Positions 1,082 to 6,235 of a stretch of DNA of 36,381 nucleotides are shown here, piece by piece. Position numbers and translations under genes: made by a program. This DNA comes from Candidatus Heimdallarchaeota archaeon (GTDB lineage Archaea; Asgardarchaeota; Wukongarchaeia; Wukongarchaeales; JBHIFL01), in assembly GCA_046761065.1 (NCBI GenBank), contig JBHIFL010000043.1, positions 1 to 36,381 of the forward strand, read 5' to 3'. Each line of letters starts with the position of its first letter. The first letter of the stretch is position 1. Below the pieces are notes generated by a model. The model saw only the letters and a program-made list of their open reading frames with translations. It did not search any database and was not told where the DNA came from.

Positions 1082-1837
1082 ATGGAATGGAAAGACAATG
1101 GTACATTGATTAAGGAAATTAATGAAATCCCGCTAAAAGATGGTGTTTTGGTCCAGGGTTTACCAGGTATGGGGTTTGTTGGCCATCTGGCAGTGAACTT
1201 TCTGATTGACGAGTTAAAAGCAAAAGAGGTTGCTCGAATTTACTCCAGTTATTTTCCTCCAATTGTACGATTAGCTGAGGACGGAATTGGACGTTTAACG
1301 CGAGCTGAATTGTATGCAGCGCTTACAGAGCCGAATCTCCTTCTTTTCACTGGAGATACACAACCTATCGACCTTGGCATCATCCAAACAATGAATTCCA
1401 TCTTAGATTATGCAGAAAAACTGGGATGTACCACAGTAATCGCGTTAGGCGGGTTACGTAGTCCAGAAGGGCCAGATGTGGCTGCATTCGCCTATACAGA
1501 AGAAACTAAGATGTATTTACAACAGAAAAAACTTGAAATCTTAACAGGGGGAGAAGTTACGGGTGCTGTTGGGGTTCTCACGGCAGTAGCTGCGGAACGG
1601 GGACTCACAGCTTATGGCCTTCTTGGTAAAATTAGCTTAACTGGACCTGATCCAGTAGCAGCCAAGAACGTGCTCAAAGTGATTCAGAACACTCTCGGTT
1701 TCCAACTACATTTGGATATCGCCAAACTTGATGAAAAAATTGAGAAGGCTCTAGAACGCGAAGAGATGACTAAAAAAATATTTAGCTTAATGAAGAAAAA
1801 GCAACAAGAGGAATCTTCCGAACGTTGGTACATATAA
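1082..1837 (+). CDS. PAC2-family proteasome assembly chaperone-like protein
   Basis: GLPGMGFVGHLA, YSSYFPP, TGDTQP, ALGG and PDPVAA motifs typical of archaeal PAC2; AGGAG RBS upstream. Confidence 0.9.
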   Translation: MEWKDNGTLIKEINEIPLKDGVLVQGLPGMGFVGHLAVNFLIDELKAKEVARIYSSYFPPIVRLAEDGIGRLTRAELYAALTEPNLLLFTGDTQPIDLGIIQTMNSILDYAEKLGCTTVIALGGLRSPEGPDVAAFAYTEETKMYLQQKKLEILTGGEVTGAVGVLTAVAAERGLTAYGLLGKISLTGPDPVAAKNVLKVIQNTLGFQLHLDIAKLDEKIEKALEREEMTKKIFSLMKKKQQEESSERWYI

Positions 1838-3395: not shown

Positions 3396-4247
3396 TTAAT
3401 CATTTGAGTTCTGTGAGGGGTAAAGGTATCTTCGATCAACCCAAGAACCCATCAGATAACCAAATAATCCGTATGCGGGGACAAGCACTAGGAGCGCTGT
3501 TAGAACAGCAATAACCGCACCCGTTGTGCCAGTAATTTCTATCTTTTCAATCCAATTTATTAAGGTTTCGACATTTATAACTGCAAGAATAATCGTTCCA
3601 ACGAATACGCCCCCACCCGCAGCTATTAACCCGTTTCGCCCATTCCCCGCGACCCATCCAGCTATTCCACCTGGGAGGATGAGGAGGGTGATAGCCATAC
3701 TCAAACCTGCTATCTCGCGATGAGTTGCCCCAACTTTCCCCCAAAGCCAAAGATTAAACTCAAGTCCTAGGAAAAAGAGGATTAATCCCACAATCCACCC
3801 TAAAGTGAGTGTTGGCTTATTTCGTTCCTGAAGAATCGCAGGTTTCCGAAGACGGGATTCCATCACTTGCTCGATATCATTCTTGAACCCCTCAAATTCT
3901 TTTTGGACTCGTTTCTCAAGAACCTGTTTGACATCCGCTTCATACTTCGTCATGAATTGCTCAAGGAGTTGGTCCAGCAGCTCTGCAACGAGGCCAGCAT
4001 TATCATTATTATCAGAAATGATTGCTCCAAAGAGCTTACCTATGTCTTCAATCTCTTTGAACCCAAAAACGAGCTGATTGTCTTGCATTTGGAGCGTTTG
4101 GAGGCTGTCAAGAAAGGCTTCGCGTGTCAGATCGCGGACAGCTACCAAGAATCCTGAAATCAATTGCTCATCGACAATTGGTCCTCCGGCTTCATAGGAG
4201 AAGATAGCAATCCCTCCTTCTTCCATAATGAGCACCGACTTTATCAT
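3396..4247 (-). CDS. Longin-like domain fused to a roughly 4-TM membrane domain
   Basis: N-terminus MIKSVLIMEEGGIAIFSY...DEQLISGFLVAV resembles Asgard longin-like domains; the C-terminal half has four Gly-rich hydrophobic helices; GGAGG RBS upstream. Confidence 0.65.
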   Translation of the reverse strand: MIKSVLIMEEGGIAIFSYEAGGPIVDEQLISGFLVAVRDLTREAFLDSLQTLQMQDNQLVFGFKEIEDIGKLFGAIISDNNDNAGLVAELLDQLLEQFMTKYEADVKQVLEKRVQKEFEGFKNDIEQVMESRLRKPAILQERNKPTLTLGWIVGLILFFLGLEFNLWLWGKVGATHREIAGLSMAITLLILPGGIAGWVAGNGRNGLIAAGGGVFVGTIILAVINVETLINWIEKIEITGTTGAVIAVLTALLVLVPAYGLFGYLMGSWVDRRYLYPSQNSND

Positions 4248-4705
4248 ACTTCTTACTCCTCCTAACGATTACTGGATGGTGGTTTCTCATTCAAAATTGC
4301 TTTTAAGATTACTTTAATAGATATTTCTTTTTATCCTTGTTTTTACACTTAGGCTATTTATTCGTTTCATATACTTATATGTATTAAATAGAAATCCATT
4401 TCGTTAAACTTAGAATTTCAAATTGGTTTTGTTTTCTAAACGAACAGTAAATGGCTATCCATTCCCCTTCATAAATCCTACAAGTTTCTAATAAGGAAAT
4501 AACTCCCAAAGACTTGACTATAAAGCATAACTAAATATATCGACTCTATCTCATATTCTATAAAGGCAGGACAAAATACAGTCATGGTTCAGGTTTGTTT
4601 CGCTTTGAAACGCAATACATTTCATAGTTGCATTCCCAGAAAAATTTTTTTCATAGGAATTTCAAAGAACAATCGCTTCTTTACAATATTATGGAAGGTC
4701 CAAAG

Positions 4706-5395
4706 ATGGCAGATCTGATTCTCCAATTGATCAGTTTTTTCTTCCCTTTAATGATTTTTGGCCTATTAATCCTTGGAGTCTATCTCCATGGAAGAAGAAT
4801 AAATCGAACCATTAAAAATGCCGTTCTTCCAAGATTGAAGCAATCCCTCAAACGTTATGTTGACGCATCAATTAAAGAAAACAAATTAAGTGCATCCCAA
4901 TGGGTGCTTGAAACGCAACCAAAACCACCCACAACTCTGAAACAGCTCGATGTTACAATCCAATTAACTCAGAGGCAGATGTTTTTCGCCCTTTTATCAA
5001 ACAAACTTATGGGAAACCAAGACTTTATAATATTTGAAGGGACTCTAAAAAAGCAAACTGCAGGGCTTATAGTTGAAATCATTCCAAACCGTGAAAAGAA
5101 AATCATTGAACGGAATTATGATTATTTAATTGGACTCAAAGATGTAAATCTGGGAATTAGTAAGCGACTAGACACTGCCTTTCTCCAGAAAAGTGATAAT
5201 ATTAAACTTGCGCGTAAGATTCTTAGTGTGCGTGAAATATTAGCACGCCTTTTAAAATCCGAAGAATACCTCCTTTGGCTAACCATTAGTAAGGATCCAC
5301 CACATTTGAGAGCAATTTACAGAATAAATGATGCCTTCGATGTAGACAATGCCAGTAAATTGACAATGGAACTCGCAGCAAGAATAGACTTTTAA
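4706..5395 (+). CDS. CCDC47/DUF1682-like single-pass membrane protein (PAT complex subunit-like)
   Basis: N-terminal TM helix, then GRRIN..., IQLTQRQMFFALL...NQDFIIFEGTL, FLQKSDN and LLWLTISKDP, collinear by eye with the CCDC47 cytosolic domain. Start placed at ATG 4706 (GGAAGG upstream; ATG 4691 is an alternative). Confidence 0.6.
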   Translation: MADLILQLISFFFPLMIFGLLILGVYLHGRRINRTIKNAVLPRLKQSLKRYVDASIKENKLSASQWVLETQPKPPTTLKQLDVTIQLTQRQMFFALLSNKLMGNQDFIIFEGTLKKQTAGLIVEIIPNREKKIIERNYDYLIGLKDVNLGISKRLDTAFLQKSDNIKLARKILSVREILARLLKSEEYLLWLTISKDPPHLRAIYRINDAFDVDNASKLTMELAARIDF

Positions 5396-5644: not shown

Positions 5645-6235
5645 TTGGAAGAGTATATTTTGGCACCACGAACAAATATTCTCTGGAATGCTGTCCTAAC
5701 TGTTGTTGCAATCATAGGTCTAACAGAATTGTTACGAATCCTTCCGTGGGATATCCCTGAGCTCATAGGATTTGCATTCATGGATGTAATTGATCTTGCT
5801 AGAGCTAACTTTATGATACTTGATATTACTAACCGTGTAATCAATTTAGCCACCATTGTTTTATTGGCTTTTTGGACACTTGCTGGATTAGCCGCTGGTG
5901 CACGTAGTAGGCACGCCGCTCGGGGTGTTATATCAGGGCTCCTTGGGGGGATCTTATTAGTCCTAATTGTCGTAATTGGAGGAATAATACTCGAAGATCA
6001 GAGCATAAATACTGCACTGCCTCCTATTGTAGGTATAATCATAGGCTTAGGAACTACGACAATCGTTGGAGGGATTGGAGGAGCACTCACATCTTCCACT
6101 GTTAAGATGGAAATGAAGCGAAAAACCACTAAAATATGGACTAAAGACGAGAAATGGGTTTGTCCTAACTGTGGGGCTGAAATTCCTCCAGGGGCTTTTA
6201 TCTGTCCATCATGTGGCATTGACGTAATCGAATGA
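5645..6235 (+). CDS. Gly-rich 4-TM membrane protein with a C-terminal zinc ribbon
   Basis: Four hydrophobic GxxxG-rich helices; CPNCG...CPSCG at the C-terminus; GAGGAGG RBS before a TTG start. Confidence 0.75.
   Translation: MEEYILAPRTNILWNAVLTVVAIIGLTELLRILPWDIPELIGFAFMDVIDLARANFMILDITNRVINLATIVLLAFWTLAGLAAGARSRHAARGVISGLLGGILLVLIVVIGGIILEDQSINTALPPIVGIIIGLGTTTIVGGIGGALTSSTVKMEMKRKTTKIWTKDEKWVCPNCGAEIPPGAFICPSCGIDVIE

What the first reader, a model, noticed from the sequence alone, without database searches (positions are those of the whole stretch)
4706..5395. Candidate archaeal homologue of the ER chaperone CCDC47 (PAT complex/DUF1682)
Seen: single N-terminal TM followed by GRRIN, IQLTQRQMFFALLSNKLMGNQDFIIFEGTL, RLDTAFLQKSDN and EEYLLWLTISKD. 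These line up by eye, in order, with recalled CCDC47 segments (GKNKN, [51 protein letters not shown]). The long basic C-terminal coiled coil is absent. Known: CCDC47 with Asterix assists multipass membrane protein insertion at the Sec61 translocon. Inference: an ancestral form of a multipass-translocon component.
Basis: inference. Interest (0 to 1): 0.75.

Follow-up and report, generated by a model that had tools for sequence, protein, structure and literature searches.

The report
Tail-less Heimdall archaeal CCDC47 homologue
This gene of a Heimdall-group Asgard archaeon encodes a small membrane-anchored protein that is a genuine but stripped-down relative of CCDC47, a helper of the eukaryotic machinery for building multi-pass membrane proteins; look-alikes also occur in other archaea and in bacteria, and its function here is only inferred.

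Summary
Window 4706-5395 (+) is a real, conserved 229-aa gene with one N-terminal transmembrane helix, a basic juxtamembrane G-x3-N motif and a cytosolic alpha/beta domain. It has no C-terminal tail.

Evidence that it is related to CCDC47:
- The only Pfam hit is CCDC47 (PF07946). At 18.6 bits it is under the 27.7-bit cut-off, but collinear.
- 18 of 35 diverse relatives also hit PF07946, and two pass the cut-off.
- An AlphaFold2 model (pLDDT 93) matches the chains I assign to CCDC47 in the multipass and SND3 translocon structures. Z is 18.2, 18.0 and 17.2, with about 218 of 229 residues aligned. The next best fold is mycobacterial TtfA at Z 11.4.

Limits on "ancestral multipass-translocon component":
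- The lumenal domain and the ribosome/Sec61 "latch" helices are absent.
- No Asterix, TRAP-alpha or TMEM147 was detected in the genome.
- The gene appears monocistronic.
- A second paralogue lies in a CstA/Get3-type ATPase module.
- Language-model and structure look-ups find the same architecture in bacteria and Methanobacteriota.

This scan has already reported the same family on other DNA (34 notes in at least 28 genomes). No paper in the searched library links CCDC47 to Asgard archaea.

The parts
4706..5395 (+). Coding sequence of the 229-aa CCDC47-like protein (P0001), stop codon included
   Evidence: Open frame and translation. Conserved in 10 close and 37 distant representatives. Pfam PF07946 at E 1.1e-3, 18.6 bits, residues 16-199 against HMM 9-206. 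AF2 pLDDT 93.3. VIA Z 18.2 to 7tm3_4.
4718..4786 (+). Single N-terminal transmembrane helix (about residues 5-27), N-terminus outside
   Evidence: Hydropathy scan finds one TM segment. It is part of helix 2-48 in the model. It aligns with residues from 135 onward of chain 4 in 7TM3. Orientation follows the positive-inside rule (inference).
4790..4804 (+). Basic juxtamembrane motif G29-x3-N33 (GRRIN), conserved across the close relatives and the clade-B set
   Evidence: G29 and N33 are invariant in A1 and A3; G29 is nearly invariant in A2 and invariant in A4. In relative P0020 this TM-plus-motif region alone gives 29.1 bits to the CCDC47 HMM.
4850..5392 (+). Cytosolic alpha/beta globular domain (residues about 49-229) with conserved R90, D106, E124-x2-P127 and P199-H200; no tail after helix 213-226
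   Evidence: Secondary structure. Conserved columns. Structural match to the chains assigned to CCDC47 at Z 18.2/18.0/17.2, and to TtfA at Z 11.4. Tail length 3 residues.
4680..4699 (+). Possible expression signals: A/T-rich TATA-like TTTACAATATTAT (4680-4692) and SD-like GGAAGGT (4693-4699)
   Evidence: Read directly from the sequence. Inference only; no archaeal promoter tool was available.
5645..6235 (+). Downstream neighbour: 196-aa protein with 4 TM helices and a C-terminal zinc ribbon. It is syntenic in the two same-order genomes but probably a separate transcript.
   Evidence: Pfam zinc-ribbon hits. TM scan and synteny with G001/G002 at 35-38% identity. The 249-bp spacer holds a T-rich stretch, a TATA-like box and its own SD GAGGAGGT (inference). 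A functional link is not shown.

Best explanation
Shown: the gene encodes a real, single-pass, N-out/C-in membrane protein. Its transmembrane helix, basic juxtamembrane motif and cytosolic alpha/beta domain are homologous to the core of eukaryotic CCDC47. It belongs to one of at least five Asgard clades of this family. Its own subclade has no C-terminal basic tail and no extracytoplasmic domain.

Inferred: it works as the CCDC47 core and its structural relative TtfA appear to. That is, as a membrane-anchored scaffold that sits on the cytoplasmic face of the membrane and binds or stabilises a multi-pass membrane protein or insertase. Its basic surface (pI about 10) would face the membrane or a partner. 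The client is unknown.

Because it lacks the latch helices, it cannot plug Sec61/SecY or reach the ribosome exit tunnel in the way CCDC47 does. It is therefore better described as a mini-CCDC47 adaptor than as an archaeal PAT complex.
For: Sequence evidence:
- Pfam's only hit is PF07946, collinear over residues 16-199.
- 8 of 10 close and 18 of 35 diverse relatives hit the same family. P0024 (29.7 bits) and P0020 (29.1 bits) are above the 27.7-bit cut-off.

Structural evidence:
- The AF2 model has pLDDT 93.3 and pTM 0.88.
- Foldseek's top three hits are 7tm3_4, 9i78_4 and 6w6l_7, at E 2.4e-9 to 6.6e-6.
- VIA-align gives Z 18.2 with 218 aligned residues, model 8-229 against chain 135-395.
- A Foldseek-independent search of 48,161 chains again ranks 7tut_4 (Z 18.0) and 9i78_4 (Z 17.2) first. 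TtfA follows at 11.4 and everything else is at or below 7.5.
- The Atlas structure look-up gives TM 0.81 to a eukaryotic cluster that is 100% PF07946. CCDC47 and then TtfA are the nearest clusters carrying a Pfam family by language-model features.

Other points:
- Tail: 3 residues in all ten subclade members, against K/R-rich tails of mostly 10-74 residues in the other clades.
- The cytosolic part has pI 9.96.
- For the adaptor idea: this genome's paralogue sits beside CstA and two ArsA/Get3-type ATPases. That matches the 'CstY' single-TMS protein of about 210 aa in Castillo & Saier 2010 (PMC2963123).
- From my own knowledge, not checked here: TtfA is an accessory factor of the multi-pass transporter MmpL3.
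Against: - The window protein itself is below Pfam's cut-off (18.6 against 27.7 bits).
- Profiles built from the archaeal proteins do not reach any CCDC47 chain in the PDB by sequence, even at E 10.
- Sequence identity in the structural alignments is only 7-12%.
- Nothing in the neighbourhood names a client.
- The function is extrapolated from distant relatives. No experiment exists for any prokaryotic member.
- The identity of chains 7tm3_4, 7tut_4, 6w6l_7 and 9i78_4 as CCDC47 rests on residue numbering, chain length, architecture and the independent Atlas and Pfam results. I did not see a printed chain table.
Confidence: 0.6

Rival explanations
1. It is a working archaeal counterpart of the PAT complex or multipass translocon. 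The protein would dock next to SecYE-beta and the translating ribosome and help multi-pass membrane proteins assemble, possibly with an undetected Asterix-like small partner.
For: Same topology and fold as CCDC47, including the TM helix. The cytosolic domain is basic and could contact rRNA. Most sister clades carry K/R-rich tails, and some carry long KE-rich helices like the CCDC47 C-terminus, for example P0035 and the 299-308-aa forms in G004/G025. The genome has an Oxa1-type EMC3/TMCO1 homologue.
Against: This subclade has no tail at all. In eukaryotes the latch helices are what sit between the ribosome exit and Sec61 (PMC12572126; PMC7505659). No Asterix (PF03669), TRAP-alpha or TMEM147 match was found in a 91.5%-complete genome. 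There is no linkage to sec, SRP or ribosomal genes. Look-alikes in bacteria and in CstA modules show the fold is used outside any Sec61-type translocon.
Confidence: 0.2
2. It is a dedicated partner of the downstream 4-TM zinc-ribbon protein (5645-6235), forming a two-gene membrane module.
For: The pair is adjacent and co-oriented here and in both same-order genomes, although the CCDC47-like protein has diverged to 30% identity and the neighbour to 35-38%.
Against: A nearby TPP enzyme gene is also retained in those genomes, so this may be plain residual synteny. The pairing was not seen in the 8 other Asgard loci inspected. The 249-bp spacer has its own promoter-like and SD-like signals. Only three genomes support it.
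Confidence: 0.12
3. The resemblance to CCDC47 is fold convergence. The protein would be an unrelated membrane-anchored member of the broad type-III-secretion-chaperone/YbjN-like alpha/beta fold class.
For: Identity is 7-12%. Type III chaperones, YbjN-like and other small alpha/beta folds appear at Z 4-7.5. Archaeal profiles do not find CCDC47 in the PDB by sequence.
Against: There is a gap of more than 6 Z units between CCDC47 and the next fold, and more than 10 to the generic folds, with 95% of the protein aligned including the TM helix. PF07946 is the only recurrent Pfam hit, seen in 18 of 35 members with collinear coverage and two above the cut-off. Topology and the juxtamembrane motif are the same.
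Confidence: 0.08

Closest known systems
Eukaryotic CCDC47 (calumin; PAT-complex subunit of the metazoan multipass translocon and fungal SND3 translocon; Pfam PF07946, formerly DUF1682; chains 7TM3/7TUT 4, 6W6L 7, 9I78 4)
   Same: Single TM helix with the N-terminus outside. The TM helix, juxtamembrane segment and cytosolic alpha/beta domain superpose over about 218 residues at Z 17-18. There is a collinear sub-threshold Pfam match, and two archaeal relatives score over threshold.
   Different: No signal peptide or acidic lumenal domain: only 4 residues precede the TM helix. No C-terminal latch or coiled-coil helices. About 40 fewer residues in loops (229 aa against the 135-395 range). No Asterix partner was detected. 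The window protein is below Pfam's cut-off.
CstY, the single-TMS protein of about 210 aa in archaeal cstA-cstX-cstY-arsA clusters (Castillo & Saier 2010, PMC2963123)
   Same: Same size and architecture. This genome's second family member (C16:28524-29177) lies beside CstA, two ArsA/Get3-type ATPases and two roughly 90-aa proteins. It is homologous to the window protein (E 6e-29 to profile A2).
   Different: The window gene is not in such a module: no CstA or ArsA lies on its contig. It sits in a different clade. That CstY equals this family is inferred from gene order and size, not from a sequence comparison with the published proteins.
TtfA, mycobacterial trehalose-monomycolate transport factor A (PDB 6T84; Pfam PF28092)
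   Same: Second-best solved fold (Z 11.4, 153 aligned residues). It is also the second-nearest cluster carrying a Pfam family by language-model features (0.77). From my own knowledge, TtfA is a membrane-anchored accessory of the multi-pass transporter MmpL3.
   Different: No sequence-level match. Z is clearly lower than to CCDC47. It is restricted to mycolate-producing Actinomycetota.
DUF3137 (PF11335), a Pfam family of unknown function that rang in two bacterial control genomes here
   Same: Family relative P0032 passes the DUF3137 cut-off (31.7 against 26.1 bits) and also scores 26.8 bits to CCDC47. Bacillus subtilis rings for both models. This suggests one superfamily.
   Different: The window protein and its genome give no DUF3137 match. 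The relation is indirect.

Membership tests
CCDC47 / PF07946 | Score at or above Pfam's gathering cut-off (27.7 bits) | tested here: not met
   The window protein scores 18.6 bits, E 1.1e-3. Relatives P0024 (29.7) and P0020 (29.1) pass, and P0034 scores 27.5.
CCDC47 / PF07946 | Single-pass topology with the N-terminus outside/lumenal and the bulk in the cytosol | tested here: met
   One hydrophobic segment, helix 2-48 and a basic segment after it. Orientation follows the positive-inside rule and was not measured.
CCDC47 / PF07946 | Cytosolic globular alpha/beta domain of the CCDC47 fold | tested here: met
   Z 18.2 (7tm3_4), 18.0 (7tut_4) and 17.2 (9i78_4), with 213-218 aligned residues at rmsd 3.0-3.3. 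Atlas TM 0.81 to a cluster that is 100% PF07946.
CCDC47 / PF07946 | C-terminal latch or coiled-coil helices reaching Sec61 and the ribosome exit tunnel | tested here: not met
   The protein ends 3 residues after the last core helix. The structural match stops at chain residue 395 of a 342-residue chain whose match begins at residue 135, i.e. before the chain's C-terminal part.
CCDC47 / PF07946 | Signal peptide plus acidic lumenal (Ca2+-binding) N-terminal domain | tested here: not met
   Only MADL precedes the TM helix. 7 of the 10 aligned relatives start at the matching Met.
PAT complex | Obligate partner Asterix (WDR83OS, PF03669) | tested here: inconclusive
   No match at E<=1 in the 91.5%-complete genome. 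A small 3-TM protein could escape an HMM.
PAT complex / multipass translocon | Physical association with the ribosome-Sec61 (SecY) complex | not testable with these tools
   No complex prediction or experimental data were available. There is no gene linkage to sec, SRP or ribosomal genes.
CstY (cstA-cstX-cstY-arsA cluster protein) | Encoded in a cluster with CstA, CstX and an ArsA-type ATPase | tested here: not met
   No CstA or ArsA on contig C43. Neighbours are unrelated. The feature is met by the paralogue on C16.
DUF3137 / PF11335 | Pfam match | tested here: not met
   No hit for the window protein at E<=10 or in the genome at E<=1. Only relatives P0032, P0031 and P0021 hit.
TtfA / PF28092 | Sequence membership | tested here: inconclusive
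   No Pfam hit in the library copy used. There is only a fold match at Z 11.4 and Atlas feature score 0.77.

The most novel reading that the evidence does not exclude
CCDC47 would be the eukaryotic branch of an ancient, prokaryote-wide class of single-pass adaptors. These would clamp onto the cytoplasmic face of multi-pass membrane proteins or insertases. Members would include CstY with CstA/Get3-type ATPases, TtfA with MmpL3, and the solo Asgard forms. On this reading the Asgard solo clades, this one included, are the direct source of the PAT-complex scaffold, and the tailed forms already bind the ribosome. Part of the multipass-protein assembly machinery would then predate eukaryotes.
Probability: 0.25. 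Interest if true: 0.75.

Novelty: new variant of a known kind. Interest (0 to 1): 0.55.

Why it matters
Current papers treat the PAT complex as a eukaryotic invention. One says it is 'strictly conserved throughout eukaryotes' and traces only TMCO1 to an archaeal Oxa1-type ancestor (PMC12572126). No paper in the searched library mentions CCDC47 together with Asgard archaea.

A clear structural homologue in Heimdall-group archaea gives a prokaryotic starting point for the scaffold of the multipass translocon. Tailed and tail-less paralogues and bacterial look-alikes add to that picture. It also offers a minimal, 229-residue version in which to ask what the conserved core does without the ribosome-binding latch.

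This particular gene adds little beyond the family-level point. It is a tail-less, divergent paralogue with no informative neighbours.

Tried and rejected
1. Sequence searches of the PDB found no CCDC47 chain. Queries were the protein, the close alignment A1, the diverse alignment A2, the best Pfam-scoring relative P0024, and the clade-A alignment A4. The sequence link therefore runs only from the eukaryotic Pfam model to the archaeal proteins.

2. The word-index search for longer (fused) forms found none. It covered only 530-2000 aa. The 'near' search up to 529 aa returned only Asgard proteins. I could obtain no eukaryotic sequence, so there is no hhalign against CCDC47 and no tree with eukaryotes.

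It found nothing with A1 or with the CstA neighbour in GTDB contigs. I therefore collected no bacterial or euryarchaeal members myself.

Contexts of the metagenomic relatives could not be read.

5. BLASTP shows no similarity (best E 5.6).

6. Asterix, TRAP-alpha, TMEM147 and DUF3137 were not found in the genome. The TMEM147 model rang in no control genome, so that blank means little.

7. I tested whether the syntenic same-order copies form one clade with the window subclade. The full-set AU test did not finish. The reduced test gave p 0.09, so the grouping is neither rejected nor shown.

8. The PSR2 RxLR-effector and DHFR hits in the PDB (E 0.03-1) were judged to be chance.

Full report
**The sequence**

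Window 4706-5395 (+) is an uninterrupted frame of 229 codons.
- A longer frame from TTG 4628 is possible. However, 7 of the 10 aligned relatives begin at the Met matching ATG 4706; P0002, P0008 and P0010 are called from further upstream. ATG 4706 is preceded by an SD-like GGAAGGT and an A/T-rich TATA-like box (inference).
- Four residues precede a single hydrophobic helix, and a strongly basic stretch (HGRRINRTIKN...) follows. The predicted topology is N-terminus out and C-terminus in.
- The gene appears monocistronic. The 458-bp upstream spacer separates it from a divergent gene. The 249-bp downstream spacer contains a T-rich stretch, a TATA-like box and a separate SD for the next gene (inference).

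**Reality of the gene and its organism**

A word-index search found ten proteins at 60-89% identity. One is named by NCBI as a Heimdallarchaeota MAG protein. Their alignment has 69% mean column identity.

A profile search of 1.84 billion representatives found 37 clusters, 118-302 aa except one 582-aa protein. Every member that carries an organism name comes from Heimdall-, Hod-, Hermod- or Thorarchaeota, and all are annotated 'hypothetical protein'.

**Relation to CCDC47 by sequence**
- Pfam gives one hit, PF07946 (CCDC47). E is 1.1e-3 at 18.6 bits, below the 27.7-bit cut-off, but it covers residues 16-199 against HMM positions 9-206.
- 8 of 10 close relatives and 18 of 35 diverse ones hit the same model.
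- P0024 (29.7 bits, HMM 8-270) and P0020 (29.1 bits) pass the cut-off, and P0034 reaches 27.5.
- The reverse direction fails. Profiles of the archaeal proteins do not find any CCDC47 chain in the PDB.

**Relation to CCDC47 by structure**

An AlphaFold2 model built on the 35-sequence alignment is confident (pLDDT 93.3, pTM 0.88). It shows one long helix (residues 2-48) followed by an alpha/beta domain ending in helix 213-226.

| Search | Top results |
|---|---|
| Foldseek vs PDB | 7tm3_4 (E 2.4e-9), 9i78_4, 6w6l_7 |
| VIA-align second look | Z 18.2 (218 aligned, model 8-229 vs chain 135-395), 17.2, 12.5 |
| VIA-align, 48,161 representative chains, no Foldseek | 7tut_4 Z 18.0, 9i78_4 Z 17.2, TtfA (6T84) Z 11.4, everything else <= 7.5 |

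I assign these chains to CCDC47 on four grounds:
- the residue numbering (TM near residue 135 of a protein of about 480 residues);
- the chain lengths;
- the fact that no other multipass or SND3 translocon subunit has a TM helix followed by a cytosolic alpha/beta domain (PMC7505659, PMC12572126);
- the independent Atlas match (TM 0.81) to a eukaryotic cluster that is 100% PF07946.

I put homology to the CCDC47 core at about 0.9.

**What is missing**
- CCDC47's acidic lumenal domain is absent.
- The C-terminal latch/coiled-coil is also absent. In eukaryotes it lies between the ribosome exit and Sec61 and extends to the nascent chain (PMC7505659; PMC12572126). The structural match ends at chain residue 395, where the protein ends.
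- All ten members of the window's subclade have tails of 1-4 residues. Most members of the other clades carry K/R-rich tails of 10-41 residues, and one clade carries KE-rich helices of about 70 residues (P0035; 299-308-aa forms in G004 and G025).
- On the tree the window subclade nests among tailed relatives. Tail loss is the parsimonious reading (inference; the tree is unrooted).

**Family structure and distribution**
- A maximum-likelihood tree of 60 members resolves at least five Asgard clades.
- Pfam CCDC47 scores do not single out one clade. Clade A reaches 29.7 bits, clade B 26.8 and clade C about 19.
- P0032 also passes the cut-off of DUF3137, a Pfam family of unknown function that rang in two bacterial control genomes here.
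- In a sample of 301 Asgard-phylum genomes, 97 have a match at E <= 1e-5. Presence depends strongly on family: 24/27, 19/19 and 9/9 in some families, against 0/92 and 8/71 in the two largest.
- The window's own close subfamily was not found in other GTDB species representatives.

**A second copy in the same genome**

The A2 profile finds a paralogue at C16:28524-29177 (E 6e-29). It lies directly beside:
- a CstA transporter (358 bits);
- two ArsA/Get3-type ATPases (228 and 181 bits);
- two proteins of about 90 aa.

This matches the cstA-cstX-cstY-arsA clusters of Castillo & Saier 2010, in which CstY is 'a single TMS (~210 aas)' protein (PMC2963123). Earlier notes of this scan gave me that lead. 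The window gene is not in such a module: CstA and ArsA genes lie on other contigs.

**Beyond Asgard**

The ESM Atlas look-up places the window protein nearest to unnamed clusters of 192-250 aa.
- By features (score 0.94-0.96), the known members are mostly bacterial (Thermodesulfobacteriota, Chloroflexota, Acidobacteriota), or from Methanobacteriota or Heimdallarchaeota.
- By structure, a Chloroflexota-dominated cluster (TM 0.80) ties with eukaryotic CCDC47 (TM 0.81).

These are leads without alignments. Together with TtfA and DUF3137 they indicate a prokaryote-wide superfamily. The family is therefore not an Asgard-only eukaryotic signature protein. Whether eukaryotic CCDC47 descends from an Asgard clade remains untested.

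**Surroundings**
- The neighbours are a PAC2-family protein, radical-SAM enzymes, a divergent protein with a longin-like N-terminus and 4 TM helices and no Pfam match, a 4-TM zinc-ribbon protein, a coiled-coil protein, and 2-oxoacid:ferredoxin oxidoreductase subunits.
- Only the 4-TM zinc-ribbon gene keeps its place in the two same-order genomes. There the CCDC47-like copy is 30% identical and also tail-less, and a nearby TPP enzyme gene is retained too.
- An AU test does not reject grouping those copies with the window subclade (p 0.09).
- Eight loci from other Asgard families show no shared neighbour. Two long-tailed forms follow a small GTPase gene.
- The two flanking 4-TM modules are not detectably related.

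**Other translocon parts in the genome**

The genome is 91.5% complete with 8.2% contamination.
- It has an EMC3/TMCO1-type Oxa1 protein (64.5 bits); the same model also rang over cut-off in all three archaeal control genomes.
- No Asterix, TRAP-alpha or TMEM147 match was found.

**Mechanism**

Shown: a membrane-anchored, basic (pI about 10), cytosol-facing CCDC47-core domain.

Inferred: like the CCDC47 core, CstY and TtfA, it binds the cytoplasmic face of a multi-pass membrane protein or insertase as a scaffold or assembly factor. Without latch helices it cannot act on the SecY channel mouth or the exit tunnel as CCDC47 does.

My estimates are 0.6 for this adaptor reading (client unknown), 0.2 for a true translocon-docked PAT-like role, about 0.1 for a dedicated pairing with the zinc-ribbon neighbour, and under 0.1 for fold convergence.

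**Novelty**

No paper in the library pairs CCDC47 with Asgard archaea. 'PAT complex', PF07946 and IPR012879 are never paired with Asgard. DUF1682 appears only in plant papers. Pfam's model already captures a few archaeal relatives above threshold.

This scan has reported the family repeatedly on other genomes, including tail-less Heimdall forms and the CstA-module form. I class the finding as a new variant of a known kind: a minimal, tail-less prokaryotic CCDC47 core.

Noticed in passing
G000 contig C16:23641-29610 (locus L006:3642-9610): A CstA-type transporter module: two tandem ArsA/Get3-type ATPases, a 90-aa and a 96-aa small protein that resemble each other (shared LPI(F/L)P.YY.LR.(L/M)P motif), CstA (593 aa), and the genome's second CCDC47-like protein (234 aa). 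It matches the cstA-cstX-cstY-arsA clusters of Castillo & Saier 2010.
   Followed up: partly
window 3396-4247 (-): A 283-aa protein with a longin/roadblock-like N-terminal part and four Gly-rich TM helices. It has no Pfam match, is divergently oriented to the CCDC47-like gene, and was not found next to the homologues in 10 other Asgard loci.
   Followed up: partly
window 5645-6235 (+): A 196-aa protein with four TM helices and a C-terminal zinc ribbon. It keeps its place downstream of the CCDC47-like gene in the two same-order genomes (35-38% identity). It shows no similarity to the 4-TM part of the upstream gene (BLASTP E 5.6).
   Followed up: partly
protein P0016 (582 aa, JGI metagenome): The A1 profile matches it in six separate stretches (best is profile 117-166 against residues 302-351). 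It could be a repeat protein built from the EIIP...KIIE segment of the family.
   Followed up: no
L020:5398-6967 and L021:5441-7030 (genomes G004, G025): The long-tailed (299-308 aa, KE-rich C-terminus) CCDC47-like genes directly follow a small Ras/Rab-like GTPase gene in both genomes.
   Followed up: no
protein P0032 (221 aa, clade B): It passes the Pfam cut-off of DUF3137 (31.7 bits) and also scores 26.8 bits to CCDC47. Bacillus subtilis rings for both models in the control genomes. This hints that DUF3137 and CCDC47 belong to one superfamily.
   Followed up: partly
window 1082-1837 (+): A PAC2-family (proteasome assembly chaperone 2-like) protein, 125 bits.
   Followed up: no
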